From contig JBHGNT010000008.1 of the NCBI GenBank assembly GCA_043228905.1, forward strand, positions 12,152,001 to 12,216,000: a stretch of DNA of 64,000 nucleotides. The letters are read 5' to 3'. Under the pieces are notes generated by a model that saw only the letters and a program-made list of their open reading frames with translations, was not told where the DNA came from and did no database searches. A program made the translations under genes and the position numbers. Source of the stretch: Azolla caroliniana (taxonomy: Eukaryota > Plantae > Polypodiophyta). This document shows, in pieces, positions 28,769 to 62,702 of the stretch; the first letter of the stretch is position 1; every line of letters begins with the position of its first letter.

Positions 28769-29004
28769 CAATCGGCATCCACGTAGCCCACTAATTGTCC
28801 GTCTATACTTGCCTGATATAACAACCCATGATCCTTCATGCCGCTCACATATCACATGATTCAATGCACGCACTGAAGGTGATCGGCTTTCGGTTACGAG
28901 ATAAATTGACGGATTAAACCAACTGGATAACTGAGGTTTGGCCGGGTGATAGTCAAGTAGATGAGGGTTCCGACAATTTGTCGGAACCATGTTGGGCCAC
29001 ATGC

Positions 29005-29159
29005 TATCATGAAGTACAAAAGCTTCACATTAAAAGTCTACCAAAAGATAAATACGTAACTAAAATAAAATATATCTTGATAATGTTTTATATATATATT
29101 ATTTGCCTCTACATATAATGTATAATATTATCATAGTGTGTTTTTTAATATTACCTTTA

Positions 29160-29190
<31 letters not shown>

Positions 29191-30370
29191 ATATTATATT
29201 ACATGGACAAGAGAGGACTTGAACCAATAATATATATATATATATTATTTGCCTCTACATATAATGTATAACATTATCATAGTGTGTTTTTTAATATTAC
29301 CTTTATAAATAAATAAATATATATTATATTACATGGACAAGAGAGGACTTGAACCAATAATATATATATATATATTATTTGCCTCTACATATAATGTATA
29401 ATATTATCATAGTGTGTTTTTAATATTACGTTTATAAATAAATAAATATATACATATATTATATTACATGGACAAGAGAGGACTTGAACCAATAACCCCA
29501 ACCTTATGACTTTGAAACCTTACCATTTACCCTATAATTGTAGTATGTATAATTTACTATATGTCTTCTTTTATTTGAAGTAATATTGTATGGTTTAAAT
29601 CCTAAACCATATAATGTACTACATGTGCACCATATATTGTATTACATGGGTGAGAGAAGACTTGAACCAACAAACTCCACATTATGAACCTCAAAGCCTA
29701 CCATTTAGCCAATACTCATTATATATATAAAAGAAAATGTGTTGTTTTATTTGAAGTAGCATTGTGTAGTCTAAACCATGTAATGTACTACATGTGCACC
29801 ATATAGCACACATGCAAGAGCCCCTTTTTGCATGTGTGACATAGGGCCCACATGCAAAACCATCCCCTTCCTATAAAAGGAGAAGGGAGTATAGTGACAA
29901 GGATATGAAGGAATCGATCAATATCAAAAGAACTATATTATATATATCAATAGAATCAAATAGAGTTATGTTGTAAGAGATATCACAATAGAGAAAGAAG
30001 AAAAGAAGGTCAATATACAAGAGAAGCTCTAAGTTGGCGGTTGTGGTGCTCAACTCTCAACAAAAAGGGTGGAGGTTCGAGTCTTATCTCATTGAAAGAT
30101 AGAAGAGAAGATTGTGGTCTACTTGTGAGACAAAGTTCAAATTCAACAATGCTCGCAACTATTTTGTAACTCTTTCATCAAATAATTATAAATCTCTTTT
30201 ATTGCTTCAATTATCATTCTATATCCTATCTTGTCATATCTTGTTGATCACTATTTATCTATTTCTACTCTTTCATCACTTCCATCCAAAATCCTAGTGA
30301 TTCCTTCCTCACTTTCACGTTATCTTCTGTCTACGTAACGCTACGCTTCCAGGTGAGCCACGCCACGACA
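29005..30370 (+). mobile_element. Solo LTR X (TATCATG...CACGACA) with internal ~128-bp tandem repeats and tRNA-like boxes
   Basis: Flanked by ATGC and ACGC; TATA CTATAAAAG at ~29870; repeats at 29090-29510. Confidence 0.7.
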
Positions 30371-30374
30371 ACGC

Positions 30375-32621
30375 TGTCGTGAAAAAACCGTCACTACGTG
30401 CGGATCGTGAGGCGGAACCGCCGAGGTTCTGAACCGGAAGGATTCGAAGTTTGCACTAGCTTTAGCGAGAAAGGATTTAAGATAGATTGAGAGAGATTGA
30501 TATTGAGAGAGAGAGATTGAGATAAAGATTGAACGCTTGACTTTAGATTTGAGAGACAAGATATATTATGATAACTTGATTTATTATTATTATTATTATT
30601 ATTATTAATTTCTTCCCAAGTTCTTCATTCGTCCCATTTTGCTTGACCTCCATTCTTTTATAGATCCCCCAATGCATATGATGCATGGGAGGGTGCAAGA
30701 CATGCATGTAACACATTAAATGCATGCGATGCATGTTTGCCATGTCACTCATCCAAGCTCTCATGTATGAAATTTTACATATGAAAAGTATAATGATAAA
30801 AACATAACTTTAAAGTTATGACTTAGCTTAGTGGTAAGTCATGTGGCTCTTATGTAGGAGGTGTGAGGTTTAAATTTTTACTTACACTCTTATAAACACA
30901 AAATTTTACAAGGCTTTAGTCTTGTTTTTACAAATGTTCAACTGCATATTGCATCTACAGTTGACCTCCAATGAACCGACGGAACCGTTAGACAATTTTG
31001 TTCATTTCACATTGAAAATCTTCAAGACACCGTGCGTCGCAATCATCCTGTTCAACTGACTCGACCGATCCGTTTTTCCGGTTCGTCCGTTCCGGTTCCG
31101 GTTCTCCAAAACCATTTTGAACAACTTGGCCGCATCCATTTGTCCAAGTTATATAACCCAACCTTTTTGTGCTCCTAACACATAGATGAAATATAAAGAG
31201 ATATGGCTCTACAAATCATAGAATGAACCATACGTATCATACGTGCATTCGCATTCGAGAATGATTTGATCAAACGTGTATGGTAAATCATCTCAAAGTT
31301 GGATTGGATTCACTATGGTCTATATTATATATTGATTCACTCTCAATCCCAATAAGTGGACTCTAATCCATTGTGAACCACCAACATAAGTACGGTTGCA
31401 ATATTTGCATTGTATCACATGCATACTTTTGGGATGCTTCTTAAGAATCAAGACATCTCTATCATCCTCACTTTAGAACTTCACAAAAAAATGAGTATGA
31501 ACTATAGATATTGAATCAAAATATGTCATTATAAATTATAACGTTCAAAAACTCATAAAACGTATATTCAAGAATATGAAGAAAACATGACATAGGCAGT
31601 GGTAGCATAACAACTTACCACTAGGGTGACCTAATTTTCTAATAACAAAGAAAGAAAAAAAGAAAAGAAAAAAGAAACGATCAAAAACTCATAAAACGTA
31701 TATTCGAGAATATGAAGAAAACATGACATAGGTAGTAGTAGCATAACAATTTACCACTAGGGTGACCTAATTTCTAATACAAAGAAAGAAAAAATAAAGA
31801 AAGGAATATGACACTAACATAAAATGTTGCCATGACATAGGCAATAGTAGCATAACAACTTACCACAAGGGTGAGCTAATTTCTAATAACAAAGAAAGAA
31901 AGAAAAAGAAGAAAAAGAAGAAAAAGGAACATGACACTAACATAAAATTTTGCCATGACACTAACAAGAGGATATGAGAAAGTTGGGAATTGAACCCAAG
32001 ACACAAGTAATAATAACACAACAACTTAGCACGAGGTCGTGCTTACGTCTAATAATAAAAAAAGAAAAGAAAAAAAACTATTATAACACTAACATAAAAA
32101 AATTCTATAAATGGTACTAAAGAGATAGAGAAAGAGATGAGACAATTGGGAATCGAACCCAAGACATAGACAACAATAGCATGACTCTTTACCACTAGGA
32201 TGAGCTGAATTGTAATGAATTGTAACGATTAAAAAAAGGAGCACATATTTTTCCCATTTCAAACGTGTTCGTTTCCAAACGTTTGAATGCTTGTATGAAT
32301 ACAAATATTACGTTCTATAGCTTTACTTATATAATCTTGAATCCTGATGGTGTTCCATCTATGTGGGATATCTCATAGTTTTGTTTTCGTCTTCTTCTTC
32401 TCAAACTTCATACTCACATAACTTCACACTAAGTTGTCCATTTCACATGTAGTAAAATGCATTTAGAAGCTCTTGAAGACATCCATATTTTCGTAACAAG
32501 ATATTAAACTAATATAAAATAATATCTTCACTATTATTGTTTCATATTGTGTGTGAAGAACCACACTCGATTTTGTACATTCCTCGCAATTTTCACACCA
32601 TTGCCAAAAATCTTCACGATA
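30375..32621 (-). mobile_element. Solo LTR Y (TGTCGTGAA...TTCACGATA)
   Basis: Flanked by ACGC and ACAC. The left end shares CGGATCGT...GCGGAACC...GAGGTT with the LTR at 40840. Minus-strand TATA at ~30655-30664; degenerate tandem repeats at 31545-32210. Confidence 0.7.
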
Positions 32622-33315
32622 ACACCTTTCCCAATTTGGGGCGAAGCTTGACATTCCTATCAAGAGGAGTCAAGATGGATTTACAATCCATCATGCCCAA
32701 CTTGAAGAGCATATTGAGCACATAATCGTTGGTTGATCAATATGCCTTTGGGGTTCGGATCACTTCGATCTTGAGGAAGTAGTGAAGATCCCCCAGATCC
32801 TTCATCTCGAATGATGCAACAAGTTCGGAGTTGATGCAACCGATTTCCTCCAAGTCGGCACCGACGATGACTAGATCATCAACATAAAGTAAAATACTTA
32901 CCAGCTCATGTTGACCTTGCCGGATGAACAGTGAAGAATCTAACTTTGATGTAGCAAACCCTATCCAACGTAGTTCCTACGTGATCTTTGTGTTCTAAGC
33001 ATGTAGGTGTTGAGAGACGAGCTCAACATTGGGTGCGTAAATGAGTACATAACCCAGTGCGTAGACTAGGTGCATAAAACCGTACACAAAATATGGTCGT
33101 GGCAATGTTTAAACTGAGAGGCCGTTAGAGTGTTATTCCACATAAGGAATAATTTTAGGAGTAAGTGTAAGATGCTCATTTATAAGCGGTCAAGTACTGT
33201 AAGTACTTGTGTCATCCCAATAGTCAGGGATTGTATAAAAGGTGCTCATTGAGCACGAAGTATGTACAGAGAACATACAGAGAATTATTTTGAATATAGT
33301 TTTGTAGTTTTGTAG

Positions 33316-34140
33316 TTAAGAAACAAACGCCCTACACCCTCCTCCTCCTTGAGACGGGATCGCTTCCCATTGAGATCATGGCCATGGAAAGGGTTGTTGA
33401 ATACATGCTTAAGGTTCAAAAAAGTCCCTCACATCCACTTCCTAGAATTGTGTGGGAAGCAAGCAAAAAGATCCAAAAGACACATAAAAGCAAAATTTTG
33501 TGTTCTGGTTGGATGCAAGATGTAGAAAAATGGTTTGGTAGATGGGACATGAGACACTTGCTTCATGATGTGTCATTAGATTCCTTTGTAAATGAGGCCT
33601 TTTTGCAACACCAATGTATCATGACATGGGACAAATGTGGAGGCTCACGCTTCACACATTATACTACACATGTTGGACCTAACTACAAAACCATATTCTT
33701 TGCGGAACGGGGAAATCGTACACATCGATACATGTTAGCGCCCAGACCGTTATCTGCCATTTGAACCGTTGCTTCCATGCGACTTCGGTCACATGCATTG
33801 CAAGGTGAAACAGGGCGTTGGGGCACAAGTGATGAGAGTGGTCGGCTATGCACACTTTGCCCTAAACAAGTTCGCGAGTCTGAGTATCACACTTTGATAC
33901 AATGGTCTGCCTTTGATCATATTCGACCATGCTTTCCACATCTCTTCGACTGAGCCCAATCTTTGCATGAATTCCTCTAACAACCACAATGTGCACTCTC
34001 GATTGCAACATTCATTGGTAAAGTTCTTGAACATCGAGAGTCACAACTCACTTTCACACGTATCACGTGAAATGTAATATTTTTGGTCTCACAGGTCATA
34101 TTTGAACTCCGAAGAAGATAATATAATCTATCTATCTATC
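33316..34140 (+). mobile_element. 5'-truncated LINE (ORF2 C-terminus) with a (CTAT)n tail, inserted in the Copia A 5' LTR
   Basis: LLLETGSLPI...HPLPR...GWM and ETGRW...RLCTLC...ESEYHTLIQ (non-LTR ORF2 C-terminal cysteine motif); tail CTATCTATCTATC at 34128-34140. LTR sequence resumes on both sides. Confidence 0.8.
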
Positions 34141-34353
34141 TCTCTCTTTGTGTGTGTCTCTTGCTCTCTTTCTCTCTGGTTTTTGTGTTCTACTAAACTG
34201 TCGTACTACCGAACCGTGTACTCTGTGTTCTTACGCACACGTATTCTTTTACATGGTATTAGAGCGCGAGGGTTGAGACTTGTCTGCAGCCGGCAGAAAA
34301 GCTTGCGATAAGATAGAGTTAGGTTGTTGTTTTCGGAAAGGATAAGACAACAA

Positions 34354-38210: not shown

Positions 38211-39218
38211 ATTTAATCGAAATGTTCAATTCGGACTTTGCATATCGACTGAGGACCAAGTGGATGAAAGGGCAGCGGAAGAGGTGCCAACACCATGACA
38301 ATAAGGGAGCTGAGAAGGGCCTCATGAGCAGACAAACCAACCGGAAAGGTCGAAGCGCGCGGAATCGAACAGGTCGAGGAGCGCGAGCGAGGCGTGAAGA
38401 CAAGAGAGGCCAGAGCGAAGATCCGGAAAAGTAGATGGAACCTCAAGTTGAGCTTGAGGGGGAGTGTTGAGAGACAAGCTTAACATTAGGTGCATAAATG
38501 GGTGCGTAGATTGGGTGCATAAAACCGTACACAAAATATGGACGTGGCGGTGTTCAAACCTGTTGAGTGACAAGCTCAACATTGGGTGCGTAATACAGTG
38601 CATAACCCAATGCGTAGACTGGGTGCGTAAAATAGTACGTATAACGTGGACGTATCGGTGCGTAAACCAAAAGGCCGTTAGTATGGTATTCCTCGTAAGG
38701 AATAATTTTGGGAGTTAGTGTAGTAAGCTCATTTATGAGCAGTCAAGTACTGTCTGTACTTGTGTCAGCCCAATAGTCAGGGCTTATATAAAAGGTGCTC
38801 ACTGAGCACAAAGTGTGTACAAAGCATCATTATTTTTTAATAGAACTGAGTTGTCTACTCTCTATCTGTCTCTCCATCTCCATCTCCATCTCTGTGGTTT
38901 CTGCGTTTACCGAACTGTCTAATTTCCGAACTGTGTACTCTATGTTTACGCACATGCTTCCGCACACGTATTCTTTTACATGGTATCAACGCATGAGGGT
39001 TGAAGTCCTATGTAGCCGACAAGGAAAGCTTGCGACAAAACAGAGGTGAAGTTGTTCGTCGTTTTTTTTTCGGAAAAGAAAAAGACAGCAATATGGACAA
39101 AGGTATGGGAAGCTAACTACCGACTGAATAGCTCGATAGGAGCAACTACGAAAGCTTGCGACAAAACAAAGTTGAAGTTGTTCGTCGTTTTTTTTTTCGG
39201 AAAAGAAAAAGAGAGCAA

Positions 39219-40839
39219 TATGGACAGAGGTATGGGAAGCTCGCTACCAACTGAATAGCTCAACACGAGCAGGTACTAGTGCATCTTGGTCGTACAAGAT
39301 GCACTAGTACCTTCTCGGTCACGGCCACTGGAGTTATGTCGAAGGAGCTAATGATGTAGCACCCGATTAGATACACAGAGACTTTTCGAGTTGGGAACAA
39401 GCGGCAAGCAGATTTCTCTACTGCTTTGCATCCTGTGTGAGAGACCAACTATTGAGCTATATTCGGGATGCTAAGATGCCAAAGGACGCGTTGACAAATC
39501 TCAAAAAGATATTTGCCGCAAGCACAACAGCCAGGAAGCTGTAGCTCAGGCAGGAGCTCAGCAATGTCCGGCAGAAAGATCTGCCTGTGCCTGATTACAC
39601 GGCCCGAATTAAGGAAATTTGTGATTCTCTCTCCTCCGTCAATGTGAACGTTGAGGAAGATGAAATGGTGCAGGTTTGCCTTGATGGGCTAGCATCTAGG
39701 TTCAGAGCCTTCTGAACGGCGGTCTGTACGAGGGAGAATATGCCTTCGTTCTTCGAGCTTCAGTCAATGTTGCACGTGGAGGAAAACCACGCGGGTGCGT
39801 CAACGAGTACACATGTCGACAGCAAGATGTTGTACATGGAAGAAGATAGGCCCCGTGGTCGTGGTGGACGAGGCGGGTCGGCGCGCAATGGAGGCGGCCA
39901 ACAAGAGCAGAACAAGCGGCATAATCGAAATGCCGATAGCAATACTGGACCCTCCACAAGCAGGGGGAGTCATGGCGGCGTCGGAAGCCAGCAAGAGAAG
40001 GCCGCGTCGGAATGTTGGTACTATGGCAAGAAAGGCCACAAGGAGAGCGAGTGCTGGAAAAAGAGAGCTGATTCGGGCAAAGCCGGATCGAGCCAAAGAG
40101 ACGCAGAGAGGCGTTAGATATCGCACTACATAGAAGGCTTTGAATGAGTCGGAAACAAATCGGGCCCAGCCTTCGTAATGAAGCATAAGGCCAATTCTAT
40201 GGCCGTGAACACCTAGAAATCAAGCGAGGTGTGGTATGTTGATTCCGGAGAGTCAAATCATATGATGAGTCATGAGGAATGGTTCTCATACTTGGAGAAA
40301 CCGGAATCTCAAGGAGTGGTCGAAACGGGAGACGACACTTCGCATACCATCGAACATGTCAGCGAAGTTCCCCTCAGCTACGTCGGGTAGAAAGGGAAAC
40401 TCATGAACATGCTGCACGTCCCGACAATAATGAAGAACCTGGTGTCGGTTGACCAGAGAATGCAGGTTCAATTCATGCATCTTGGCTGCTTCAGAGAAGA
40501 AGAAGGCAGAGTAATCGCGCAAGGGCGTCGTGAAGGGAGGATGTTTATCCTCGACACTAATCAAGCCAGAACCGCGTTGTATGCGAAAGGACAAAAGGTC
40601 GAATCGGATATCGACATGTGGCACAAGTGGTTCGGCCACGTAAATTTCGCACGGCTTCATGAGATGCAAACGAAGAACATTGTTTTCGGCGTGCCAAAAT
40701 TCCGGGGCCGTAATGGCCAAGTCTGCGAAGACTGTCAAATGGGAAAACAACACCAACTTCCATTCCCCAATGAGCGTAATCATAGTCGAAGTCCACTGGA
40801 TTTGGTCCATTCGGATGTGTGGAGACCGACACAAAACGT
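39219..40839 (+). pseudogene. Copia B gag, PR and start of integrase
   Basis: CWYYGKKGHKESEC; WYVDSGESNH; CEDCQMGK; LVHSDVW. Confidence 0.88.
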
Positions 40840-41602
40840 TGTCGTGCCTTTCGGCTCCGGATCGTTGCGTGAGTCGGGCGGGAACCATTGAGGTTTTGGA
40901 CTAGGAAAAAATAAAATTCTAAGGCAATGAAGAATATGAAATATGTTGTAAGAAAGAAAGATATGAAAAACTCGTTAATCCCACGAGTATAGTGTATTAG
41001 TGAGTACTCAGATTAAGAGAGAAAAATAGTTAGCAAATTCGTGAATCCCACAATTATATTATATTAATCCACCCTTGTAAAATAAACAACAACCACTATA
41101 CATCTTTCTCTCTCCCTTATATAGTGTTGGAAGAGTCTAAGTTTATCACATGCAAGCATCATGCTTTTCCTAACTTTAGTTTTCATGCACACTGCATGTG
41201 CATGATTAGTTTTCCTAACTTTAGTTTTCATGCACACTGCATGTGCATGATTAGCTTTCTATCCCATCTTTTTCTTTTTTTAACTCGAGTGTGTATGCAT
41301 GAATAACTTTTTGTACCATGCATATCTAGAATATTTACATGGGATAAAGTTTAGTATAACTCTAAAATTCATAATATGCTAGTATAGTGGTAAGGCTGGG
41401 GTTTGTCTACGTGGAGGTACAGGGTTCGAACCCTGCCCTATTCATGTAATAAATATTTTTCATATTTTATTTTATTTATTATACGTACTTTAAATTGGAT
41501 ATAGTATTTTACATATTTCACATAGTGTGTGATTCACACTACGACACTCGCCCCCTCCGAACCCGCACATCCTCCGGTATGTGCCGAAGTCCCCGATGCT
41601 TG

Positions 41603-42247
41603 CTATTCACCTTCATCCGAAGCTTCCTCCGATTCTCCCCTTAAGTCGACTATGACTTGTAATCCACTTTCTTTGCTTTCCGCATCACCGCAATCTTCGT
41701 CTGATTGCTCCTTCTTGTCGGTCTTGTCTAGGATCACATAGGGTTCTTCATCAGTCTGCTTTTGGAAAATCTTCACCCGTTTCACAGCTATAGGCACTCG
41801 TAGCATCGTTCCATCCAACTCGCATAGTCGGTAAGTTCCGTTGTGGAAAAATTTCCGAACCTCATATGGCCCGAACCACCTTTTCGCGAACTTCCGCACC
41901 GTTGTATGTTGATGATCCAAACTACTGTCGTAGACAATCACTTAATCTCCTTCTTCAATCTTCCGTGGTTGTAGTCGGTGTTTTGTGTCGAACCGGCTTT
42001 TATTCCGGAATCGCGCTTCTTGTTGTCGGCGTATTGCTTTCGCTATGTCTTCCGGTTTTCCCTCTAGTTATCGTATCCGGACCGCTAGTAGTTCTCCCCG
42101 GCTTATCTCTTCCTTCCACGGTAGCACTGTCCATGTCGCGATCGCGGTTTCCGTTGGCATTACCGGTGCTTGTCCAGTCATCAGTTTTGCCAGCATGTAA
42201 CTGGTTACGGAGCTATGGGTCGTCCAATCCGCCCATAGTGCATACGG
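41603..42247 (-). pseudogene. Gypsy integrase C-terminal part (GPY motif)
   Basis: RKFAKRWFGPYEV...NGTYRL...RVKIF. Confidence 0.85.
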
Positions 42248-42922
42248 TGTCGTGCCTTTCGGCTCCGGATCGTTTGCGTGAGTCGGGTGGGAACCACCGG
42301 GGTTTTGGACTAGGAGGAAGAAAAATACAAATAAGGCTAGTAAAGAATAGGTATAAAGAGTTATAAGATAAGAATCTCGTGAATCCCACGAGTTTAGTAT
42401 ATTTAGTCAATATTTAGGTAGTAAGAGAGAATTATTTTAGCAAATTCGTGAATCCCACGAATATTTTAGATTGATTGATCATTATAGAAAAATAATCAAC
42501 AAAAACTACAATGTGCTCCCCATCCTTATATAGTGATGGGAGAGACTAAGCATAGCTACATGCTTTTTCTAATATGTTCATGCACACTAAATGTGCATGT
42601 GATGCTTTTCTAATCCTTGCTTTTATTTGCTAAATATAGTGCTCATGCACGCTAGATGTGCATGAGTCACTTTTTTGTTGCTTGCGTTTTTCTATAAAAT
42701 ATTCACGCACTCTAAAATATGCACGATTTACCTTTTAATAAAGTTAGGCGCAAATAAAGCACTTATAGTTATTAAATCTATTTATAGAACACTAAAGATA
42801 AGGTAGCATAATGGTAAAGTTGAGGTTTGGCTACGTGGAGGTACAAGGTTCGAATCTTGCCCTATGCATGTGATAAATATCTTGATATTCTTATTTTATT
42901 TATTTATATGTAATTAAATCGG

Positions 42923-44998: not shown

Positions 44999-45014
44999 CT
45001 CCTTGCCACCCGCC

Positions 45015-45032
45015 TTCACGTCGGGTTCACCA
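45015..45032 (-). promoter_or_regulatory. Primer-binding site complementary to the 3' end of tRNA-Trp
   Basis: TGGTGAACCCGACGTGAA, 4 nt inside the 5' LTR; matches the plant cytosolic tRNA-Trp 3' end as recalled (...TTCACGTCGGGTTCA-CCA). Confidence 0.85.
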
Positions 45033-45795
45033 ACTGTGTCGTGCCTTTCGGCTCCGGATCGTTTGCGTGAGTCGGGTGGGAACCACCGGGGTTTTGGACT
45101 AGGAGGAAGAAAAATACAAATAAGGCTAGTAAAGAATAGGTATAAAGAGTTATAAGATAAGAATCTCGTGAATCCCACGAGTTTAGTATATTTAGTCAAT
45201 ATTTAGGTAGTAAGAGAGAATTATTTTAGCAAATTCGTGAATCCCACGAATATTTTAGATTGATTGATCATTATAGAAAAATAATCAACAAAAACTACAA
45301 TGTGCTCCCCATCCTTATATAGTGATGGGAGAGACTAAGCATAGCTACATGCTTTTTCTAATATGTTCATGCACACTAAATGTGCATGTGATGCTTTTCT
45401 AATCCTTGCTTTTATTTGCTAAATATAGTGCTCATGCACGCTAGATGTGCATGAGTCACTTTTTTGTTGCTTGCGTTTTTCTATAAAATATTCACGCACT
45501 CTAAAATATGCACGATTTACCTTTTAATAAAGTTAGGCGCAAATAAAGCACTTATAGTTATTAAATCTATTTATAGAACACTAAAGATAAGGTAGCATAA
45601 TGATAAAGTTGAGGTTTGGCTACGTGGAGGTACAAGGTTCGAATCTTGCCCTATGCACATGATAAATATCTTGATATTCTTATTTTATTTATTTATATGT
45701 AATTAAATCGGTTATATTATTTTTACTTTTTCACGTAGTGTACGAAATACACTACGACAACGGAAGCATCTGCAGCCAATCCTTCACCCTTCCGT

Positions 45796-46607
45796 TGTCG
45801 TGCCTTTCGGCTCCGGATCGTTGCGTGAGTCGGGTGGGAACCACAGAGGTCTTGGACTAGGAGAAAGAAGTTCGTGAGATAGAGATTAATTATGAGTAAA
45901 TAGCAAAGAGAAAGATAAGAAACTCGTGAATCACACGAGTATACTATATTAATTGGTACTTAGGGTGTTAAGAGAGAAGTAGATGTATAAATCGTGAATC
46001 CCACGAATAATTTTTTTTTTATTGATTCATACTTAATCCAAATAATCAACAACCCTTTATATATTTCTCTCCTCCTTATATAAGGAAGGAAGAGCTAAGC
46101 ATGGCTTCATGCTTTTTTTTTTTTTACAAAAAGTGTTCATGTCCACTAAATGTGCATGTGATGCTTTTTTATTTCCTAAGTATAGGGCTCATGCACGCTA
46201 GATGTGCATGAGTTATTTTTAGTGTCTCGTGTTTTCTTTTTCATATATTAAAAAAATACACGATTTACCTTTTAATAAAGGTATGCATAAATAAAGGTCT
46301 TATACGTATTAAATCTATATTTAAAACACTTAAGATAAGTTAATGTAATGGTAAGGTTGGGGTTTGTCAATGTGGAGGTGCAGAGTTCGAATCACGCCCT
46401 GCGCAATAGTGAGTATTTCCTTTTTTTTTACATTTATGTCTCTTTATCCGGCTCTTCCTTGCCGGTATGCCGTTTTCTTCCTTGCCGGTATGCCGTTTTC
46501 CTCCTTGCCGGTATGCCGTTTTCTTCCGGTTCTCACCGAGCACTCCATTCTCTATCCGGAGGGACAAAAATATAATTTCCACATAGTGTGCAACCTACAC
46601 TACGACA
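45796..46607 (-). mobile_element. Solo LTR of the same Gypsy lineage, in the host integrase
   Basis: TGTCGTG...CTACGACA ends; TSD CCGT; internal ~22-bp repeat CCTTGCCGGTATGCCGTTTTC x3 at ~46455-46525. Confidence 0.92.
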
Positions 46608-46611
46608 CCGT

Positions 46612-49600
46612 CGCATGCTTTTGCAAGTGCTTTGAGGATCGGACTATATCCTCATTCGATTTTCCCGTTGGCCTCCGGATTGTATGCCGTTGTTAGTGTT
46701 ACCCGAACTCCATGTTTGGTGAAGAATTCCTTAGCTTTATCAGAGTCGAGTTCTCCCAGATCTGCAATCACTTGTCCTATGCACCCGTACCTGCAAAACA
46801 CCTACTCCAAAAGAAATTGGCATACCGCAGAACACGTTTTCCTTCGTAGAGCCTGACCTTCTACTTGGTTTGTGAGATCTTCCCGAGCTAACACCAAGTA
46901 CTTCTTTTGTCCGATCCCAGTTGGCATGGCTACAATGTCGACCATCCATTTGAAGTTGATTGTCGGTGAGAATGTCGAATGTAACTCATCTAGGTGTCGA
47001 ACTCCGGAGTAGATTTGACACTTCTTGTAGCTTTCCGTGAACTCCGCTATATCTTTGTACATATTCTTCCACCAATATTTTTGTTTGATTTTCACAAAAT
47101 TTGCCCATGTCCCTCGATGTCCAGCCCAATCAGATTCATGAAACTCGGACATTATTCGGTTTTGTTGCTCTTTCATCCTGACTACCTGAAGTGGTATGCC
47201 CTCCGGTCTTTTCGGCTCCCTCCATATTAATCCGTTTTTCAAGAAGAACTTTTGGACTTGCCTCTTCTTCCTTTGGATCTCGGCTCTCTTCTCTTTATCG
47301 TCCGGTGATTCCTCAATCTCTTGTAGCACCTTCCCGATCATCAAGCTTTCTCCTTCGTATTCTTCTTCTCGGAATTCTCGGATTACGTTTACTCGGCATA
47401 TGTGCTCCGAAGCAAGTAGTCTTCAGAAACTTCTTCATTATCGGATTCGGCTATGTCGTCTCCGAACCAAGCCATTGATAGCATATCCGCTACCTCATTG
47501 TCTTTTCCGGAGATGTGTCATACCTTCGGATTAAGTGACTTAACATATGCAATCCATCTTAGCATAGCCACATCCGGTATCGTGCAACACCGCATCATCA
47601 TGAGTATCAGAAGACAATCTATTTCGATCACTACTTCGGCTCCGATCAAATAATATCGATCTGATTTGATTGCCTACACGACTCCCCATAATTCTCTTTT
47701 GACTTGTGCATATCCATGTTGCCTTTTGTTGAGAACCTTACTCCGAATCGGATCGGATATCGGAAACCATCTGAGTCAGCTTGATTAATGACCCATCCAA
47801 TCCCGGTTGGGCTTGTATCAACCGTTACTATAACCAGTCGGTCATAGTTTGGCTTCTTTAGTGCTTTTGCCCTCCGTAGTGATTTCTTGAGCTTCTTCAC
47901 GGGTTTGGTATGCTCTGGTTTCCATTCAAACTTCTTCCCCTTCCACAACAAGTGATAGAGTGGGTCCGTTATGTGTGCATAGTGCGGAATCCATATATGG
48001 TAAAATGCACATGCCCCAAGAAATCTACGGACTTCGGATTGCGACTCGCATATCTCTTTCATAGCATGTATCGCATCGACCTTGGTTGGTGACGATCTTC
48101 GGCCGTAGGGCCCACATAGATGTCCGACTACCAATATCTCTTCTTGTCCGAATGCTGATTTCTCTCCGAAAAGTGTCAGGTGCACATCTTCTAACTTTCG
48201 TAGCACTTTCTCGCAATCACGAATATGGTTGACTACGAACTGTCAGCATCCCTGATCATCCATAGTCTCGTCTTTTTCTTCCACCGCGCATCCTTTTATC
48301 GGAATGTCATCTAGGAACGGCATCGTTATCTCCGGAATGCAGTCCCTGAGCACCTTGTTCATTGCATTCATCATATGTGCGACCGAGTTCATCGCGCCTT
48401 GTGGTAGCGTACACATCCGGACTAATCCTATCGGTGTCTGCATGGTAGTGATGTCTCGGCTCTCCACAGCTAGTTGGAATTGGTCATACCCCGAGTATAG
48501 GTCTCCGATGGAGTATATCGCATGACTGGCAAATGCTTCCAAAAATTCGTCCACTATCGAACCGACTCTGGAGTTCCGGATCATGACCTTGTTCACCGGT
48601 TGCAAGTCTTGGATAAATCGGAGTGACTCATTCTTCTTCGGAACTGTAAACCATCGATTTGAGTACAGAGCATTTGATGGCTCTAGAATCCCCATCGCTA
48701 CCTTCTCCTTGAGCAAGTCGATGATTTTCGGAATATGCGCCCGTGGCACTAGAATTGGCTTTAGGTTCCACGGCACATGGTCAATCGTGAAGATCACCAT
48801 CGGCTCCACTATCTTCGGGTCACCGCGTCCTATTTCTTTCGATGTAAATGCAAATGCTCTCCCATGTCACTCTAGCATCCCACAGAATCGTTCTTCTTCA
48901 TTGTTTAATAGGAACCCACCTCCACCGATCTAAAGTTTCTTCCGGGGGTCTCATCCATGAAGGCATGTCCGATATCCATGGACTTCCGAAGTGTCGGATC
49001 CCTCGAGACTTCTTTCCTCTTTTGTTCGCTATCAGCGGGTAACGGTCCCCCGACCGGTTTCACTTTCTTCTCCACGGTCTTGTATTTCGTACTTACCATT
49101 GCTTCTTCTTTGTGGAGTGCATCCGGCCCCATTTTCACAATGATCTCGTACATCTCGACCGATTCCACCGGGACTACCCGGCCTCCCTGGCTTGTATCTT
49201 CCGCGAGCTCTTCAAGCCGTTGTACTGTGCTCCCATAGAACACTTCTTCGACTATTCCCACGATTTCTTCATCTTCTTTATTATTGATGCCGACCGTAAT
49301 TTATCCTCCACTTTTCGGCATTCTTTCTTCATTCCTCCGGTTACGTCCATGTACATAGATGCCCCATCCGGACTAATTCGTACTTGTTTTGCTCAAGAGT
49401 TTTCTTCCTATGTGGGGAATGAGGGCTTCTCGGACTATCACTTCCCCACTCCGCAACAATCCGCTCTAAAAATCCATCCTTGTTTGGGACAAGAGCTCTC
49501 TCTTGTTCCTTTCATGATTTGCTAGCACAGTTAGGAATTGGACGGATTTCCCTCCGCTTTGGCTCTGAATTCATGCGAAAGCCGCACCGCTATCGAGCAC

Positions 49601-51288
49601 CTTTGTCTCCATCCGTGAAGCTGTGATAAAGGGTTGCCCGAGGATCACGGAGTGGGAGACCTCGTCTTGTACGAAGAAATTTTGGTCGATCTCGACATCC
49701 CCGAACTTCACTGTCACATCCGGACAAGCCGCAAATAGATCTTTCGTTGCTTTAGTGGCCGCCCAGATCTTCCATCCATAATTGGTGTTAATAGGCCACT
49801 TCCCCTTCCGGTAGAAATCCTTAGACATCAAATTGATCTCTGATCCGTGATCAATCATTGCTAACACGAGCTCTTTGATGTTGCCAATTCGGACCGGAGT
49901 CTCCGTAGTTGCACATGCCCAGTGTGGCTTTGTATAGTGGGAATTCGGAATCTCGTCCTCCACTTCGGTGTCGTTCATCAGAACGGTATTTGCATTCACC
50001 ATTGGCGCATTTTCCTCCGTACTTTGTCTTTTTCTCTTCATGAGATCCACAAGAAGATCGTGGAACTTCTTCTTCACTATTCTAAGTAATTCCCGAAGCG
50101 AAAATTCTACCCGGCTATCGAGGATTCTCTCTTCGAACACCTTTTTCAAGTCCGTTTGTTGTTCGATGTTCAAGGCGAGCTTGAATGCCGGAATCTTCTT
50201 TTCTTTTCCCTTCCCTCCAGAGTTCCAACTTTCCGGTGTCTTTGATGGTCCGGCCGCATCATCCGTGCGCCGTTGTTTTTCATCCACATACACTTCATGC
50301 AATTGACATAGTGCATGTACGCTATTCTTATCTATGGGGCACTCCCATCACGTAGCTTCCTGGATACATTCCGCGGCGCATCGGATTTCATCATGGTCAG
50401 CTTTCTTCAAAATTTCTAACACTTCCGGCCAAAAAGACGCCTTTGCTGCAGATGACTCCCCCACACGTATTCCCGCGGTTGTCACATAATTGTTTTTTGC
50501 CGCGATCTCCTCCTCTAGGACCTTCTTCATGCCACCTTTCCGGAAGTTCGGTCGGAGTGGCTTCCGAGAATCCATCGAATGAATCTGATTTCCCTCGTAG
50601 TAGATAAGATCCCGTCATAGCGCCTCCTTGTGCTCGTCGCAATCTCTCCGATCATGTTCGGTGCTATCGCACCATATGGATCGACGGTCCATATACATGG
50701 AACTTGTGGGATGGACTTCCGTCTTCTTCACCATTGCGATTTTGAAATTCTCCATCTCCTTCAGCAATTGCTCCACCGTGGTTGCGTCGATTCCCTTCTC
50801 GGTCGTAGTCACCCGAGCCCGCAGTTCATGGTCTTCCGATCCGGATCTTGGTTTCAGAATCAGTTCCGAAACCCTCTTGTCTTCGTTGGCAAGCCATTGC
50901 CCCCTCTTTGTGTATCGCGCGGCGATATCCCGCACGCTTTCCCATGTTTCGGTGAGGCCACTCTCGGTAGTTGTGTCCTCTAGAAGGACTCCAATATCCT
51001 TTCGGTCTCGGATGTCTACAGCTCGTAAGAACATGATAACTTTGTCCGATGCGAGGATAGCTTGATCTCTCGCAGACAAACTCCCGAACCGACTTTCGAA
51101 TGACGAAAACACATCGAGGACCTTCATCCCCTTGTCCGGCGTTTCCACCCAATCCTCGAATCCTCTCCGCATTGCCTTGGAGGAGTCCTCGATAGCGAAT
51201 GTGGTCTTTAGCGCCTCTTCAAACGTTTCCCACATCGGATTTTGTTGTCGTAGCCCGTGGATACTTGCTTAAAGCCCGTCGGTAGCCA
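46612..51288 (-). pseudogene. Gypsy gag (3' part), PR, RT, RNase H and integrase pseudogene
   Basis: AMIDHGSEINLM (PR); DLYSGYDQF, LPQG and FLDDI (RT); VTVDTSPTGIG (RH); HESDWAGHRG...YWW...CQ (INT). Confidence 0.92.
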
Positions 51289-51498
51289 TGTTGTAGGTTT
51301 TTAGGGTTAGGGTTAATGGTAATGATGATTGGTGATGGAGATGGTGTGTTTAATGAGGATGATGAGCGTTATGGGATCGATGGTGAGAGAGACGACAAGC
51401 ATTGAGAAGCATTGTGGGGTGGGGGGTGGTGCCTAGAATGGCTCCACCCCCCTCCCCAAGGGGTTCAACGTTGAGGGAGAGAGATAGGAAGAGAGGTG

Positions 51499-51551
<53 letters not shown>

Positions 51552-54500
51552 GATTCCTTTTTTCATTCATTCCCCATAAGGGGGTTAAATAGTACAAGAG
51601 GGGGTAGATACAAAGGGGTGTAAGCCCACTAGAGCATTCATATTGGACACTCACTCACACCTCATCGTATCCCTCCACATGCACACACGTGTGCATGTGT
51701 TCACATACATATCAACTCACAATTACATTTATGTTCCCTACACATATACAACATCATCATGGTAATATTCGACCCTCGCTCATCACACTTGACTCTCCGT
51801 ACAGCTCGTACGGGGTAACACAATATGGCACGCCCGTGGGAAAGTGCCTTGCACGTCGATCCCACATGCCTTGATGATGATATCTCTTCGACCGGAACTT
51901 CCATCGGTCCTTTCAACGATCGATTCCCACGATCGGAGCGCTTGACTCGATCATCTCCATCGGTCAGCGACTTTTCTGCGACACGAACATTCTCATTCTG
52001 TCGTCTTGCGAACTTTGGTATCCTCTTTCGGGTCCTTAAAAATGTTGTGTGTATGTATGTTATTCTTTGTTGATTTTGTGAGTTGTCGTGGTCGATCACG
52101 TCCATTTCTTTAGGTGGATAAGATTTCAAAATTTCATAGGTGCCCTTTGATTTTTAAAATTTTCTTATATACCCTCAGGTTTTTACAATTATGTTTGATA
52201 CCCTCATGTATCTAGAATTCCAATAGTGCCCTTAGGTTTGTTTTTCGAAATTTCTAGGATGTCCTCAGTTTCCAAAATCCGAGGATGCTCCGTATGGTTA
52301 TCTTTTTCCCTCCCTCTTTTCTGTTTCATCTTCCTCTTTCTTGGTGTTAACCGTTGCTTCTTCTCCTCTTCCTGTCTTTCGTTTCCTCCTCTCTCTTTCT
52401 TCTTCTATCTTTGTTTCTTCCACTTCTTCCTTGTTCTGTTTGGCGTTTTGGGGTAGGGAGGAAACGCAACCTTCACTCTCCCTTTGCTTGCATGTCATCT
52501 CCCTCTACTGCTGTCGTCGTCGTTTCCGTTGGCCGGTTCTGGTTGTCCGTCTCTGTCCGGTCCTTCTGCCTGCTGCCGCTTCATCCGGCCGCTCCGGTGC
52601 TGATGTCCGGCTAGTCCGTTCTTCCCGGCTGTTTTTGGTCATTTGTCCGGCCGTCTTCGCTCTGGTCGACGATCTGTCGCCGTCCATCATTCCGGTCGTT
52701 TCCATCATTCGCTCTGGCCGTCATTTGTTTCTGTTGCCTGTCCATTTCAATCATTTTTTGTCCCCAGCTTCGTTGTCGTCTCCATCTTTATCTCTTTGCC
52801 TTGTCCGGTAGTCATCATCATCGTTCGTCTTTCGTTGTCGTCCATCACTGTCGACCGTCACCATTGCCATCTCTATTTGACCCGTCCGGGCACCGCCACT
52901 TCATCTGGCCGCCTATGCGTTGTCAGGCCTCTATTTCGTCGTTTCGACGTCGTTTCTCGTCTCGTTCATTCAGGCCGGCTGTCTGGCAGCCGCTTCCCGT
53001 TGTCATTGTCTATCATTGTCCTTCTGTCGTGGTCATCTTGTGTCTCGTCCGTTGTTCGACCCCTGGTTTGGCCTCGGCTTTCCGAAGTGTGCGGCCCTTT
53101 CCCTCTCTGTCTTGGCCACTGTCCGACCTCGTGCTTTTGTCTGGCCTGTCTGGTCCGCCTGCCTCGATTCCGATACCATTCGGCCACTTTGGCTGCTTTT
53201 GTGCCTTTCGGCCGCTCGTCGGAATGTCTATCCATTGTCTTCCGGTCTGTTTCGGTGTAATTGTTCTAGCCATCGAGTTGTCTTAGTGCGGCCTGTTCCG
53301 GTCCATTCCGGCCGGTTTTCCGGTAGTCGGTTCGGCTACTGTCCGGCTGCTCTGTGTCTTTGCGCATTCCGGAAATCGATCCAACCGCTATCCGGCGGAT
53401 GCCGCTCTGCCGTTGCCACTGTACAACCGCCGCTCCATCCGGTTACTATCTTTGTCCGACCGGGCTGCTGTTGGTCGGCCACCACTCTAGCTCCATCAGG
53501 TCACTGTCTCTGTCGCTCTTTGGTGTCCATATCCCATCGTTTGGCTATTGCCATTGTCGTGGCTGTGCATTTCGGATATCGTCTCTGTCGCTCCTCGGTT
53601 CTATCCGGCCGTCGTCCCACTGTCTTCCAATCGTGTGTCTGGTCTGTCTGTCTGTGTGGTCGCCTGTTCGGCCCATTTGACCCATCCTACTGTGTCTTGT
53701 GTCTTTTTGGTCACTTTTGTCTAATGCATCCGTCTGTATCTTTCCAGCGCTATTGGTTGATGTCTGGTTTGCATCTGCATCTCCTCCGTCTTCTTCGGCC
53801 CTTCGGTGTTAACCGACTTGGGTTCTGGTTCCGATTCCGGTTCCGACTGTCTGCGCGTTTCTTCTTCTGGAACCATTGCCCGTGCATTCTCAGCACATCC
53901 TGCCGGTATCCGCTCCACACACTGCGACTTTCTCCGCAGTCTCCTGGTGGGCTTCTCTTTCCGGTCGTGCTGGCACCGGTTCCCACTGCATCGCAGTTTG
54001 TACAGTTGTGCATCTTGCACCGCGCTTTCAAAAACACGCACATTGTCGCTAACCGCATCGGAAACCCGCACATTGACACTAATTGCACCCTCGCACAACC
54101 ATTGTTGCCATTCATGCATTCCTCCATCGCATCATCATTTCTTGCACTCTTACACAAACATTTCTTGCACTCGTACACAAACGTCATCGTTTCCATTTCT
54201 TCGCTTGCACATACATTGAACATCGTCGCTGTCATTTGCATGTTTCTGTCATTTCTCGCACATCATGCTGCCACGTTCTCTTCTTGGACTTCTTCATCAA
54301 AGGGGGTCCGCCGTTGTGGTCGCCAAAAGGTGTTGTCTGTCTGGCCGGACTAGCCTCAACACAAGTGTCTACCCGACACTTCTCCAAAGGGGTGGTAAGG
54401 ATTGGATGCTAGGTTACACGCATAAGATGATTACAATTAAGCACGGACGGCAAACAATACGAGATACAGATAAATACACGACAATTACTATTGTATTACT

Positions 54501-54710
54501 TCCGTCGAAACACTTTACAAATCATCGGATCCTTTTATAGGCATCCGGCAAGGTTACAATCGGTGCGCTTAGGCAACCGACATCCGAATCGGTTCGGATC
54601 CGGATCGGTACAACTGTACCGAATCCGTCCCTCCGAATAATAATTCTACTATTACTTCCTATTATTCGATCCGCCTTCCCACTTGCCCTTGCTCTTCTGA
54701 CCGGCCAACA
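51289..54710. mobile_element. 3422-bp insertion with TGTTG...CAACA ends, probably a very large solo LTR, in the Gypsy gag
   Basis: Perfect 5-bp TSD AGCCA (51284-51288, 54711-54715). Removal rejoins gag SFNWVA-TDGL. No internal direct repeats or pol motifs seen. Confidence 0.8.
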
Positions 54711-54951
54711 AGCCACCCAGTTGAAGGATGCCACTTGCAGTCCTTCCCAAATCCCGCACCGTATCATTTCCGCCTTGTAGTCCTGAAGATAACGTGATAC
54801 GTCCTTTCCGTTGAATTGCCTGATCCGTTGCACAAGCCACTCTATTGTTGCCGCTATCTCCGACATCACACGTTGTTCGTGAAGCATCCGCTTGAACATC
54901 ATCATCATGTTGTTAGCCTCCGGTTGATTTTCCATCTCCTTGCCACCCGTG

Positions 54952-54969
54952 TTCACGTCGGGTTCACCA
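54952..54969 (-). promoter_or_regulatory. tRNA-Trp primer-binding site of the host Gypsy
   Basis: Identical 18-mer to 45015-45032, 4 nt inside the LTR. Confidence 0.85.
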
Positions 54970-55637
54970 ATTATGTCGTGCCTTTCGGCTCCGGATCGTT
55001 GCGTGAGTCGGGCGGGAACCACTGAGGTTTTGGACTAGGAGAAAATAAAATTCTAAGGCAATGAAGAATATGAAATATGTTGTAAGAAAGAAAGATATGA
55101 AAAACTCGTGAATCCCATGAGTATAGTGTATTAGTGAGTACTCAGATTACGAGAGAAAAATAGTTAGCAAATTCGTGAATCCCACAATTATATTATATTA
55201 ATCCACCCTTGTAAAATAAACAACAACCACTATACATCTTTCTCTCTCCCTTATATAGTGTTGGAAGAGTCTAAGTTTATCACATGCAAGCATCATGCTT
55301 TTCCTAACTTTAGTTTTCATGCACACTGCATGTGCATGATTAGCTTTCTATCCCATCTTTTTCTTTTTTTAACTCGAGTGTGTATGCATGAATAACTTTT
55401 TGTACCATGCATATCTAGAATATTTACATGGGATAAAGTTTAGTATAACTCTAAAATTCATAAATATGCTAGTATAGTGGTAAGGCTGGGGTTTGTCTAC
55501 GTGGAGGTACAGGGTTTTGAACCCTGCCCTATGCACGTAATAAATATTTCTAATATTTTATTTTATTTATTATACGTACTTTAAATCGGATATAGTATTT
55601 TACATATTTCACATAGTGTGTGATTCACACTATGACA

Positions 55638-58440
55638 ACGTGAGTCTCAATGGAAGTCGTTACTCTATAACCTTCATTGACGACTTCACTCGGCACATGT
55701 GGGTATGCACGATCGCAAAGAAGAGCGAAGTCATCGCATGTTTCCTAAAGGTGAAGAGCCTTGTAGAAAGGGAAATAGGGTGTAAAATTAAATGCCTACG
55801 ATCCGATGGCGGGAAGGAGTACTTCTCCGACCAGTTCACAAGTTATCTACAGAAGGAGGGAATTCGACGTGAATTCTCGTGTAGATACACGCCGCAGTAG
55901 AACGACGTGGCCGAGCGGAAGAATCGGACAATCGAAGAACTGGTCAGGGCAATGCTTGAAGAGAAGCATGTGCCGAAATTCTATTGGGCTGAAGCCGTGA
56001 GGACGGTTGTCTACCTGCAGAATTGGACTCCTGCTAATGGAGTGTCGCCACATGAGTTGTATTTCGGGAAGAAGCCGAACTTGGCACACTTGAGGATTTT
56101 CGGTAGCATTGCATATGTGCATGTGCCAAAGGAAAAGAGGAGGAAGTTGGACGCCAAAGCCGAACAGTGCATCTTAATCGGCTATTCAGACGAGCAGAAT
56201 GGGTATAAATGTTATACCCCTTGAACAAAGTAAGTACACGTAAGTCGAGATGTTGTGTTCAACGAATCCGCTTCGTGGTACATGCCTTCACCTCCAACGC
56301 CTCATGACTCCATTCCGAATTCTGAGGAAGAAGTCAGCAAGGACGAGATGCTTCTACATGATGAGGAAATCGGAGCTCTGAGAGAGAGTCTGATCTCATT
56401 TCGGCTAAGTGGGCCGAATGAAGGGTTGAGCCGAAATGACCAACCTATTGACGAGATGGCGAGTAGTGGAGACTCGAACGTGATGTCCCCGCATAAAGAA
56501 CCGAGGAGACGGTTTATGCGTAAAGAGAAAGGCAAGAAGAATATGCCAAAATACGACTTCGGTAGTGTTGAGTCAGATCGGAGCGAGTCTGACTACGGGC
56601 ATACTGAAAAGGAACCTCCACGGAAGAGGTCGACAATAGCCAAAAAGGTCGTGAAATCGGGTAATCACGAATTACGCCGATCTACCCGCCTCAAGAACCC
56701 CGTAAAGAGATACGGGTATAATGAGTACATGGCGCACCATTACGCGTAAATGATGCGAGTGGCAGAAGTGCGTGAGCCGGAGAGCTACATAGAAGCGGCG
56801 AAAGACGCGAACTGGTGTGCCGCGATGGATGAAGAGATGCGCACTTTGACTGATAATGAGACTTGGGACCCGGTTGACGCACTGAAGGGTGGGTGTATAA
56901 AGTGAAATACAATACCGATGCCCTCAATCAATCAATACAAGGCCCGCTAAGTGGCGAAAGGCTACGCACAGAAGCACGGCGTGGACTACGACAACACCTC
57001 CGCGCCTGTCGCGAAGATGACTACCGTGCAAGGTGATCTTGAGGAAGAGGTCTACGTGGTACAGCCCCCCAGATTTCTATCCGAACAAAACACCTCGGCA
57101 ATTTGCCGATTGAAGAAATCACTCTACGAACTAAAGCAAGCCCCACGAGCCTAGAACGCGAAGATTACGCAAAAGTTGCGTAGGATGGGGTTTACGACGT
57201 TGAAATCGGACTCTTCACTATTTGTTCGGCAAGGCCAATATGGACCAGTAAGTCTTCTACTTTATGTTGATAATTTAGTCATCGCCGGGGCCGACCTGGA
57301 TGAAATCCACCGCATAAAGTCTCAGCTTGCGGCATCATTCGACATGAAGGATCTTGGAGACCTTCATTACTTCCTCGGGATCGAAGTGATCTGTACCACC
57401 GAAGGCATATTGATCAACCAGCATCATTACGTGTTGAATATGCTCTTCAAGTTCGGGATGGCAACTTGTAAGCCCATCTCGACCCCTCTGGACAGAAATG
57501 TAAAGCTTCGCTGAGATTTTGGAAAGATGTGTGACCCAATACAATTTCGAAAAATTATGGGAAGCCTCATCTACTTGACGATTACTCGGCTGGATCTCAG
57601 CTACCAGGTCGGCTTAATCAGTCAATTTATGTCACAGGCTACGGCCGAACACTTTCAGTGTGCACAAAGGATATTGCGATATGTCAGTGGCACGAAAGAC
57701 ATGGAGTTGTTGTATCGGGCAGGCGTAGCCGAACAGTTGGTTGGCTACACGGATGTCGATTGGGCCGGAAACGCCGGTGATCGTAGATCCACATCCGGAT
57801 ACACCTTCTCATTAGGAAACGCGGCGATCGCGTGGAGCAGCAAAAGGTAGCCGATAGTGGCATTGTCGAGAGCGGAGGTCGAATATCGAGGGGCAGTTGT
57901 CGCTACGTGCGAAGTCATTTGGCTGAAACGGCTATTACGGGATCTACATGTAGAGGTGTCTGATCCGACGATTATCTATTGTGACAACCTCAACAATATC
58001 CACCTTAAGAAATACCCTATGTTCCATGCCCGGACCAAGCACATTGAGGTGCACTAACACTTTGTCCACGAGCGGGTCCTTTCAGGTGAAGTCGAACTAG
58101 CATATGTTCCGACGGATCGGCAGGTTGCCGACACCTTTACCAAGCCTCTTGGTCTCGACAAGTTACGCATTTCTCAGGTGAACTAGGGTTGCGTCACCTC
58201 GACACGCCGAACTTGAGGGGGAGAAAGGAAGAACAAGAACAAGAGCATGAAAGGAGCGAAGGTGTTCATCACGGCGGAAGTAACCGTGACGATGAATCGG
58301 ATGAAGAATTCGATTTCGGGCCGGCTGAAAAAGCCGAAGAAAAGAGCAAGGGCGATAACCATAATAAAGAGCCGAGGATAGCCAAATCAGGGGGAGATAC
58401 AGCCAAGAAGGGCGTAAAGGCCAAGACCAAGACATGATTT
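55638..58440 (+). pseudogene. Copia B pol pseudogene (integrase, RT, RNase H)
   Basis: TFIDDFTR; CLRSDGGKEY; AERKNRT; YVDNLV; YTDVDWAG; HARTKHIEVH. Confidence 0.92.
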
Positions 58441-62685: not shown

Positions 62686-62702
62686 AACTCAATAAAACGG
62701 AA

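What the first reader, a model, noticed from the sequence alone, without database searches (positions are those of the whole stretch)
29001..55641. LTR lineage with TGTCGTG...ACGACA ends inserts only at CG-centred 4-bp targets in this window
Seen: five insertions share these termini and have 4-bp TSDs with a central CG: ACGT (40836/55638), ACGG (42244/45760), CCGT (45792/46608) and ACGC twice (29001/30371/32622, outer copies decayed). The other LTR insertions with readable TSDs have 5-bp TSDs without CG (ATCAG, CAATC, AAACC, AGCCA). Established: most plant LTR elements make 5-bp TSDs with weak sequence preference. Inference: this integrase selects CpG, possibly methyl-CpG, which would steer it into other methylated transposons. 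All four sites lie in retroelement pol regions. The sample is only four independent sites.
Basis: partly seen in the sequence, partly recalled or inferred. Interest (0 to 1): 0.85.

Follow-up and report, generated by a model that had tools for sequence, protein, structure and literature searches.

The report
Fern retrotransposon that inserts at CG
A family of jumping genes, in what is likely a fern, sits at four-letter sites centred on CG (or a worn CG) at every insertion examined, a habit already reported for the moss Phygy lineage to which it likely belongs; whether it needs methylated CG is untested.

Summary
All nine TSD coordinates read as stated, and empty paralogous sites show exactly 4-bp duplications. 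In 42 independent junctions from public contigs the central pair is CG in 35, CA in 4, TG in 3 and nothing else, against 4.3% CG in the flanks. The TG/CA share matches CpG decay inside the same LTRs. The element is a minus-strand Ty3/gypsy with no chromodomain and no extra RNase H. The host is likely a fern. The trait is already in print: Neumann 2019 lists moss Phygy elements as '4 bp (100%) (NCGN)' with a tRNA-Trp primer. Phygy membership fits the structural features tested, but no Phygy reference was available for a tree. New here: the likely fern host, near-absolute specificity once decay is allowed, the refined motif VCGB (best ACGT), and a near-invariant Glu at the integrase position of PFV Ala188 (58-59 of 59 homologues). 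The methyl-CpG idea gained no direct support. Drosophila ZAM-group elements pick CGCG in a host essentially without CpG methylation (host fact recalled). Verdict: new member of a known kind.

The parts
40840..55637 (-). Element A: degenerate Ty3/gypsy (gag-PR, then RT-RH-INT), inserted in a copia integrase; 7,039 bp without its three nested inserts; LTRs differ at 12 of 662 columns
   Evidence: Pfam
54974..55637 (-). 5' LTR of A
40840..41546 (-). 3' LTR of A
40836..40839 (+). TSD of A, ACGT (second copy 55638-55641; empty paralogue 35936-35939)
54954..54969 (-). Primer-binding site of A, 4 nt from the LTR; tRNA-Trp by recalled tRNA sequence only
   Evidence: sequence; same motif beside B and in 13 of 58 loci
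41547..41564 (-). Polypurine tract abutting the 3' LTR of A (same tract at 42971 in B)
48246..48866 (-). Reverse transcriptase segment of A
   Evidence: PF00078; homologues
46612..47422 (-). Integrase of A, zinc finger and core (broken by stops; continues in pieces at 45764-45791 and 41606-42243)
42248..45759 (-). Element B: young non-autonomous copy (gag-like frame only; LTRs differ at 3 of 723), nested in A's integrase; TSD ACGG 42244/45760
45796..46607 (-). Element C: solo LTR nested in A's integrase, close to B's site; TSD CCGT 45792/46608
29005..30370 (+). Element X: solo-LTR-like copy of a diverged subfamily; left TSD copy ATGC (decayed), right copy ACGC
30375..32621 (-). Element Y: solo-LTR-like copy of a second subfamily; shares the ACGC copy at 30371 with X; right copy ACAC (decayed)
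51289..54710 (.). Unrelated TG...CA insert in A's gag with 5-bp TSD AGCCA (control)
38561..59133 (+). Host copia element carrying A; 5-bp TSD AAACC 38556/59134 (control)

Best explanation
This is a Ty3/gypsy LTR retrotransposon family, likely a fern member of the Phygy lineage, whose insertions duplicate 4 bp centred on CG, and its integrase likely reads the CG sequence itself rather than a methyl mark. Shown: 4-bp duplications, a central CG or its decay product, avoidance of T at the first and A at the last position, and repeated nesting in other retroelements. Inferred: the symmetric integration complex cuts 4 bp apart and kinks the target at the central step, as 4-bp retroviral intasomes do, favouring a pyrimidine-purine step and avoiding T at the cut. 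Lineage-specific base contacts then narrow that choice to CG. The candidate contact is the conserved DRGEL loop, whose Glu sits where retroviruses have a small neutral residue. After insertion, target and LTR CpGs are likely methylated and decay to TG/CA. Nesting in transposons likely follows from their CpG richness and from selection against genic insertions.
For: 35 CG, 4 CA, 3 TG, 0 other in 42 independent junctions; flank CG 4.3%; p 3e-41. Decay control: 14 of 117 CpGs inside the same LTR ends are TG/CA against 7 of 42 TSDs, Fisher p 0.60. At the other LTR end 5 of 6 genomic flanks are CG-centred. For the Y subfamily, the majority letters just outside its terminus read ACGT in 54-58 contigs in each of three runs. 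T at position 1 in 1 of 42 (background 34.7%) and A at position 4 in 0 of 42 (31.9%); this is the edge rule reported for 4-bp retroviruses, with a central YR preference (PMC4422553). Phygy is listed as 4 bp NCGN, tRNA-Trp 81%, no extra domain (PMC6317226). DRGEL occurs in 58 of 59 scorable homologues, and its Glu aligns to PFV Ala188. The integrase ends in an SH3-like fold and an acidic tail, with no chromodomain hit. Five of 41 flanks are strongly CpG-depleted (observed/expected under 0.35) yet the site is still CG or decayed CG.
Against: No Phygy reference sequence could be placed in a tree, and the tRNA-Trp call rests on recall (ARAGORN found 0 tRNAs in 68 loci). A is 7.0 kb, below the Phygy range of 7.7-10.0 kb. 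Forty of the 42 junctions show one side only. L033 has TG on both sides and its two 4-mers differ (GTGG/GTGT), so it is a chimera or a true non-CG target. PFV Ala188 contacts bases outside the duplication, not the central pair, so the Glu is only a candidate, and A's own copy has lost the Arg of that motif. Methylation at the time of insertion was not observed at any site. Paralogues of site C often carry CCAT, so that CpG is likely methylated in many copies.
Confidence: 0.7

Rival explanations
1. The integrase needs or strongly prefers 5-methyl-CpG at the centre of the target, so the element homes to silenced DNA by reading the methyl mark.
For: All four window sites and about 23 of 42 outside flanks lie in repeats. 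Target CpGs decay as methylated ones do. No other YR step is used.
Against: No reader domain found. TG, which mimics the methyl group on one strand, is not used above the decay rate. CGCG targeting exists in Drosophila ZAM/Tirant, a host essentially without CpG methylation (recalled). The contigs sampled favour repeats, and no baseline exists.
Confidence: 0.13
2. Sequence reading gives CG, and a separate chromatin tether (for example through the acidic integrase tail) steers the element into heterochromatin.
For: B and C sit 32 bp apart in one integrase gene, X and Y share one site, and L025 is another insertion into the family's own integrase. Phygy is reported nested in Tcn1 elements in moss (PMC6911290) and enriched at centromeres in a liverwort (PMC12885004).
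Against: No chromodomain. CpG-rich repeats and selection would give the same picture. Not testable without a genome.
Confidence: 0.1
3. The family is not Phygy but a separate non-chromovirus lineage that reached the same CG preference on its own.
For: No named Physcomitrium protein among the 120 and 62 hits listed. A is shorter than the Phygy range. TatI also has 4-bp TSDs and a Trp primer.
Against: NCGN is listed only for Phygy among the plant lineages in the table. No archaeal RNase H, so not TatI. Close relatives (70-74% RT identity) occur in the liverwort Riccia and the fern Adiantum, which fits a lineage of seed-free plants.
Confidence: 0.06
4. The pattern is an artefact of small numbers or mis-drawn LTR ends.
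For: Four sites in the window; the LTR ends themselves contain CG.
Against: 42 of 42 outside junctions; empty sites with one 4-bp copy; PBS-side and PPT-side junctions of the same ends lack CG.
Confidence: 0.01

Closest known systems
Phygy (non-chromovirus Ty3/gypsy of Physcomitrium patens; Neumann et al. 2019, PMC6317226)
   Same: 4-bp TSD with NCGN, likely tRNA-Trp primer, no chromodomain, no archaeal RNase H, no extra ORF seen, coding region filling the interior
   Different: Host is likely a fern, not a moss; A is 7.0 kb against 7.7-10.0 kb; the motif is resolved here to VCGB, best ACGT; tree placement not tested
TatI (club-moss Tat; PMC6317226)
   Same: 4-bp TSD, tRNA-Trp primer
   Different: TatI carries an archaeal RNase H between PR and RT, not found here; no NCGN listed
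ZAM and Tirant errantiviruses of Drosophila (PMC5408687)
   Same: Palindromic CG-centred target (CGCG) and several complementary terminal bases
   Different: Insect, env-bearing, AGT ends, CGCG rather than VCGB; a functional parallel, not kin
Retroviral intasomes with 4-bp TSD (PFV, MoMLV; PMC4422553)
   Same: Central YR step favoured; T avoided at the first and A at the last TSD position
   Different: Their YR enrichment is modest (about 63% above chance) and covers all YR steps; here one step is used almost alone, and the Ala188 position holds Glu

Membership tests
Ty3/gypsy LTR retrotransposon | LTRs, PBS, PPT and domain order PR-RT-RH-INT | tested here: met
Phygy | 4-bp TSD | tested here: met
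   L002
Phygy | NCGN target motif | tested here: met
   35 of 42 CG, 7 of 42 TG/CA at the decay rate
Phygy | PBS for tRNA-Trp (81% of elements) | tested here: inconclusive
   A conserved PBS complementary to a CCA end is present; the Trp identity is recalled, and no tRNA gene was recovered to check it (0 of 68 loci)
Phygy | No chromodomain, no archaeal RNase H, no extra ORF | tested here: met
   Pfam on A's frames and on 5 full-length homologues; tails after the GPY motif are 56-95 aa in 53 of 54
Phygy | Short element (7.7-10.0 kb) with coding sequence spanning nearly all of the interior | tested here: inconclusive
   Coding fills the interior, but the one full copy is 7,039 bp net and degenerate
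Phygy | RT, RH and INT group with REXdb Phygy (the primary criterion) | not testable with these tools
   The REXdb FASTA supplement was too large to read; no named moss hit; the tree had no reference or outgroup
TatI | Archaeal RNase H between PR and RT | tested here: not met
   No such Pfam hit in A or in Riccia polyproteins P0028, P0038, P0052
Selgy | tRNA-Ala primer, about 5 kb | tested here: not met
   7.0 kb, above the 4.4-6.7 kb range; the primer does not look like Ala (recalled)
Chromoviruses (Tcn1, Galadriel) | Chromodomain at the integrase C-terminus | tested here: not met

The most novel reading that the evidence does not exclude
The integrase of this seed-free-plant lineage is a methyl-CpG-selective recombinase. 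It reads 5mC directly in the target through its unusual DRGEL loop, has kept that specificity from mosses to ferns, and so lands in silenced DNA without any chromodomain. I found no such integrase described in the searches made.
Probability: 0.13. Interest if true: 0.85.

Novelty: new member of a known kind. Interest (0 to 1): 0.33.

Why it matters
Plant LTR integrases are mostly indifferent to target sequence. This lineage is the listed exception, and in the papers I found it was noted only in a sentence and a table cell. The data here suggest the preference is near-absolute, extends to a fern and points to one candidate residue. That makes the mechanism and the methylation question testable with one enzyme assay. 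A CG-fixed TSD also decays quickly, so tools that demand perfect TSDs would undercount older copies. If methyl-CpG were read directly, it would be a new route of transposon targeting.

Tried and rejected
No whole genome is held, so no genome-wide baseline was possible. A viral-contig scan with the RT found no relative. Attempts to obtain a named Physcomitrium sequence failed. The RT tree of 48 rows (the window's RT plus 47 of the 120 listed hits, chosen by hand) has no Phygy reference or outgroup and was not used for membership. Attempts to confirm the primer tRNA from a real gene gave chance matches only (31 and 37 loci, 0 tRNAs). Avoidance of G one base outside the TSD (2 of 42 against 25%, p 0.0006 uncorrected) was not mirrored at the other end (3 of 9 carry the mirror base C), so it is not claimed. 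Reading-frame continuity was rejected as a test of TSD length, since removing an element plus one copy restores the frame at any length. An A/B-box-like piece in the LTR got no Rfam tRNA hit and is only moderately conserved. A recalled likeness to fungal Ylt1 could not be checked: the passages read gave no Ylt1 TSD. Three look-ups in earlier scan findings returned nothing. No structure or complex was predicted, because DNA cannot be modelled with those tools.
Full report
Observation. Self-comparison and Pfam give the anatomy. Element A (40840-55637) is a degenerate Ty3/gypsy on the minus strand inside a copia integrase. B (42248-45759, gag-like frame only, LTRs differing at 3 of 723 positions) and the solo LTR C (45796-46607) are nested in A's integrase, their target sites 32 bp apart. 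X (29005-30370) and Y (30375-32621) lie head to head in a copia RT/RNase H region and share the middle ACGC. A also holds an unrelated 3.4-kb insert with the 5-bp TSD AGCCA. Without its inserts A measures 7,039 bp. The other 5-bp controls are present.

The duplication is 4 bp. Uninterrupted paralogues in the window show one ACGT and one ACGC between the same flanks. In public contigs the C site is joined with exactly four shared letters, and the B site is joined without the element in 19-21 contigs in each of three runs. Contigs in three of four runs read C at 29002, so ATGC is a decayed ACGC.

Beyond the window. No genome is held, so I scanned metagenome contigs with a 22-nt LTR end and got 58 loci from nine assembly records, probably one host species. 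Thirteen were internal PBS-side junctions and three were duplicates; these 16 were dropped. In the remaining 42 the central pair is CG in 35, CA in 4, TG in 3 and never anything else, against 4.3% CG and 13.6% TG+CA in the flanks (p 3e-41). Three CpGs just inside the same LTR ends, scorable in 39 of the 42 loci, are CG in 100, TG/CA in 14 and other in 3. That does not differ from the TSDs (Fisher p 0.60), so the exceptions are explained by decay after insertion. At the opposite LTR end six genomic flanks read ACGT four times, GCGG and GTGT. Limits: 40 of the 42 show only one side, the search word selects young copies, and L033 has unequal TG words on its two sides.

X and Y. They share little with A beyond the ends. 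For Y's family, 54-58 contigs in each of three runs have majority letters ACGT just outside the terminus, and in two runs the PBS motif further out. One Y-type junction in L031 reads CCGA. Y is therefore the same kind of element. For X the evidence is weaker: its inner terminus, a 54-bp 80% match to A's LTR, and the shared site. Both outer ends start TAT; whether that is decay or a subfamily trait was not resolved.

Finer motif. T opens the site in 1 of 42 (background before CG 34.7%) and A closes it in 0 of 42 (31.9%); A..T occurs in 16 of 42 against 5.5%. The motif is VCGB, best ACGT. Serrao et al. (PMC4422553; passages and sections 6 and 14 read) report the same edge rule and a central YR preference for retroviruses with 4-bp duplications, and attribute T avoidance to a clash of the thymine methyl. 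The edges are thus generic; the restriction to CG among YR steps is what is special.

Host and relatives. A sugar-transporter gene in the window has its closest single-gene named match in Adiantum (79%), then Ceratopteris (74%), against 62-69% for lycophyte and seed-plant proteins (higher-scoring rows are fused doubles of lower identity). The host is likely a fern. The RT has unnamed relatives at 75-91%, Riccia sorocarpa proteins at 68-74% and an Adiantum nelumboides protein at 73% (120 of 202 hits listed).

What is known. Neumann et al. 2019 (PMC6317226; passages, section 9 and supplementary file 5 read) state that Phygy elements alone show an insertion preference, NCGN. They list 186 elements with 4-bp TSD (100%), tRNA-Trp PBS (81%), 7.7-10.0 kb and no extra domain. 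A matches on TSD, motif and missing domains. The PBS matches tRNA-Trp by my recall only (could not confirm it). A is 0.6 kb short of the range. The deciding phylogeny could not be run: Additional files 1 and 3 were too large to read and bear directly on membership and on whether VCGB is already visible in moss. Searches: 'NCGN' with 'retrotransposon' gave 3 papers, only Neumann on point (listing). 'Phygy' gave 18 (listing). 'Phygy' with 'fern' gave 3; passages of two name the lineage without a fern report and the third was not read. Passages show Phygy with mostly 4-bp TSDs nesting in Tcn1 in moss (PMC6911290) and enriched at liverwort centromeres (PMC12885004). Passages of PMC7466625, PMC9002660, PMC6839031, PMC12477314, PMC5014426, PMC2864245 and one bioRxiv preprint added nothing on CG targeting.

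Mechanism. The likely course is a symmetric intasome with a 4-bp stagger that bends the target at its centre, plus base contacts that accept only CG. The residues after the second catalytic Asp are DRGEL in 58 of the 59 homologues where the motif could be scored, out of 120 examined. The Glu aligns with PFV Ala188, a position held by small neutral residues across retroviruses. This is a lead only: Ala188 touches bases outside the duplication, and A's own copy has lost the Arg.

Methylation. Nothing here shows the state of a target when it was hit. For a methyl role: all window sites and about 23 of 42 flanks are repeats (17 by tblastx and 3 more by blastn to the window; L053; two gag-type Pfam hits, which scanned 74 of 119 candidate frames), and paralogues of site C often carry the decayed CCAT. 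Against: no reader domain, no use of TG beyond decay, CpG-rich flanks (median observed/expected 0.93 in 41 flanks) that explain nesting without methyl reading, contigs biased towards repeats, and CGCG targeting by Drosophila ZAM/Tirant (PMC5408687, passages) in a host that, from my own knowledge, lacks CpG methylation. A search on methylated CpG, insertion preference and integrase listed nothing on point (listing).

Verdict. A real and unusually strict target preference, well supported beyond the window, but a described trait of the Phygy lineage, here in a likely new host group. New member of a known kind, interest 0.33. The methyl-CpG reading remains open at about 0.13.

Noticed in passing
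L002:1-80: A 71-bp element with both LTR termini and an ACGT duplication on both sides: a miniature or internally deleted copy that kept the target rule.
   Followed up: no
window 41380-41435 (also 42808-42858, 45597-45647, 46346-46395; related pieces in X and Y): LTRs carry a piece resembling RNA polymerase III A and B boxes (recalled motifs), antisense to the element in A, B and C. No Rfam tRNA hit; mean identity 0.70-0.80 among 12 LTRs against 0.34-1.0 along the LTR.
   Followed up: partly
window 49466-49475 (-): The gag-protease frame ends just after a GGATTTT run where the RT frame begins; a possible -1 frameshift site between protease and RT.
   Followed up: no
window 45033-45036 and 54970-54973: The PBS lies 4 nt from the LTR, a longer spacer than the usual 1-3 nt (recalled), also in most PBS-side loci.
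   Followed up: no
window 29005-29014 and 32612-32621: Both outer ends of X and Y start TAT instead of TGT; either parallel decay or a subfamily with a non-canonical U3 end.
   Followed up: partly
L031 and L053: A-family copies inserted into Y-family LTRs, one about 50 bp inside the Y terminus.
   Followed up: no
window 59471-63992: Tandem, roughly 729-bp repeats of a copia integrase fragment on the minus strand.
   Followed up: no
window 61743-61898 (-): A weak match to bacterial-type large-subunit rRNA (E 1e-4), probably an organellar DNA fragment.
   Followed up: no
window 5026-7049 (-): Sugar-transporter (STP-like) gene in pieces, closest to fern proteins.
   Followed up: partly
window 26929-28768: A 1.8-kb non-coding LTR element with 96% identical LTRs, an internal tandem array and 5-bp TSD CAATC (TRIM-like).
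   Followed up: no
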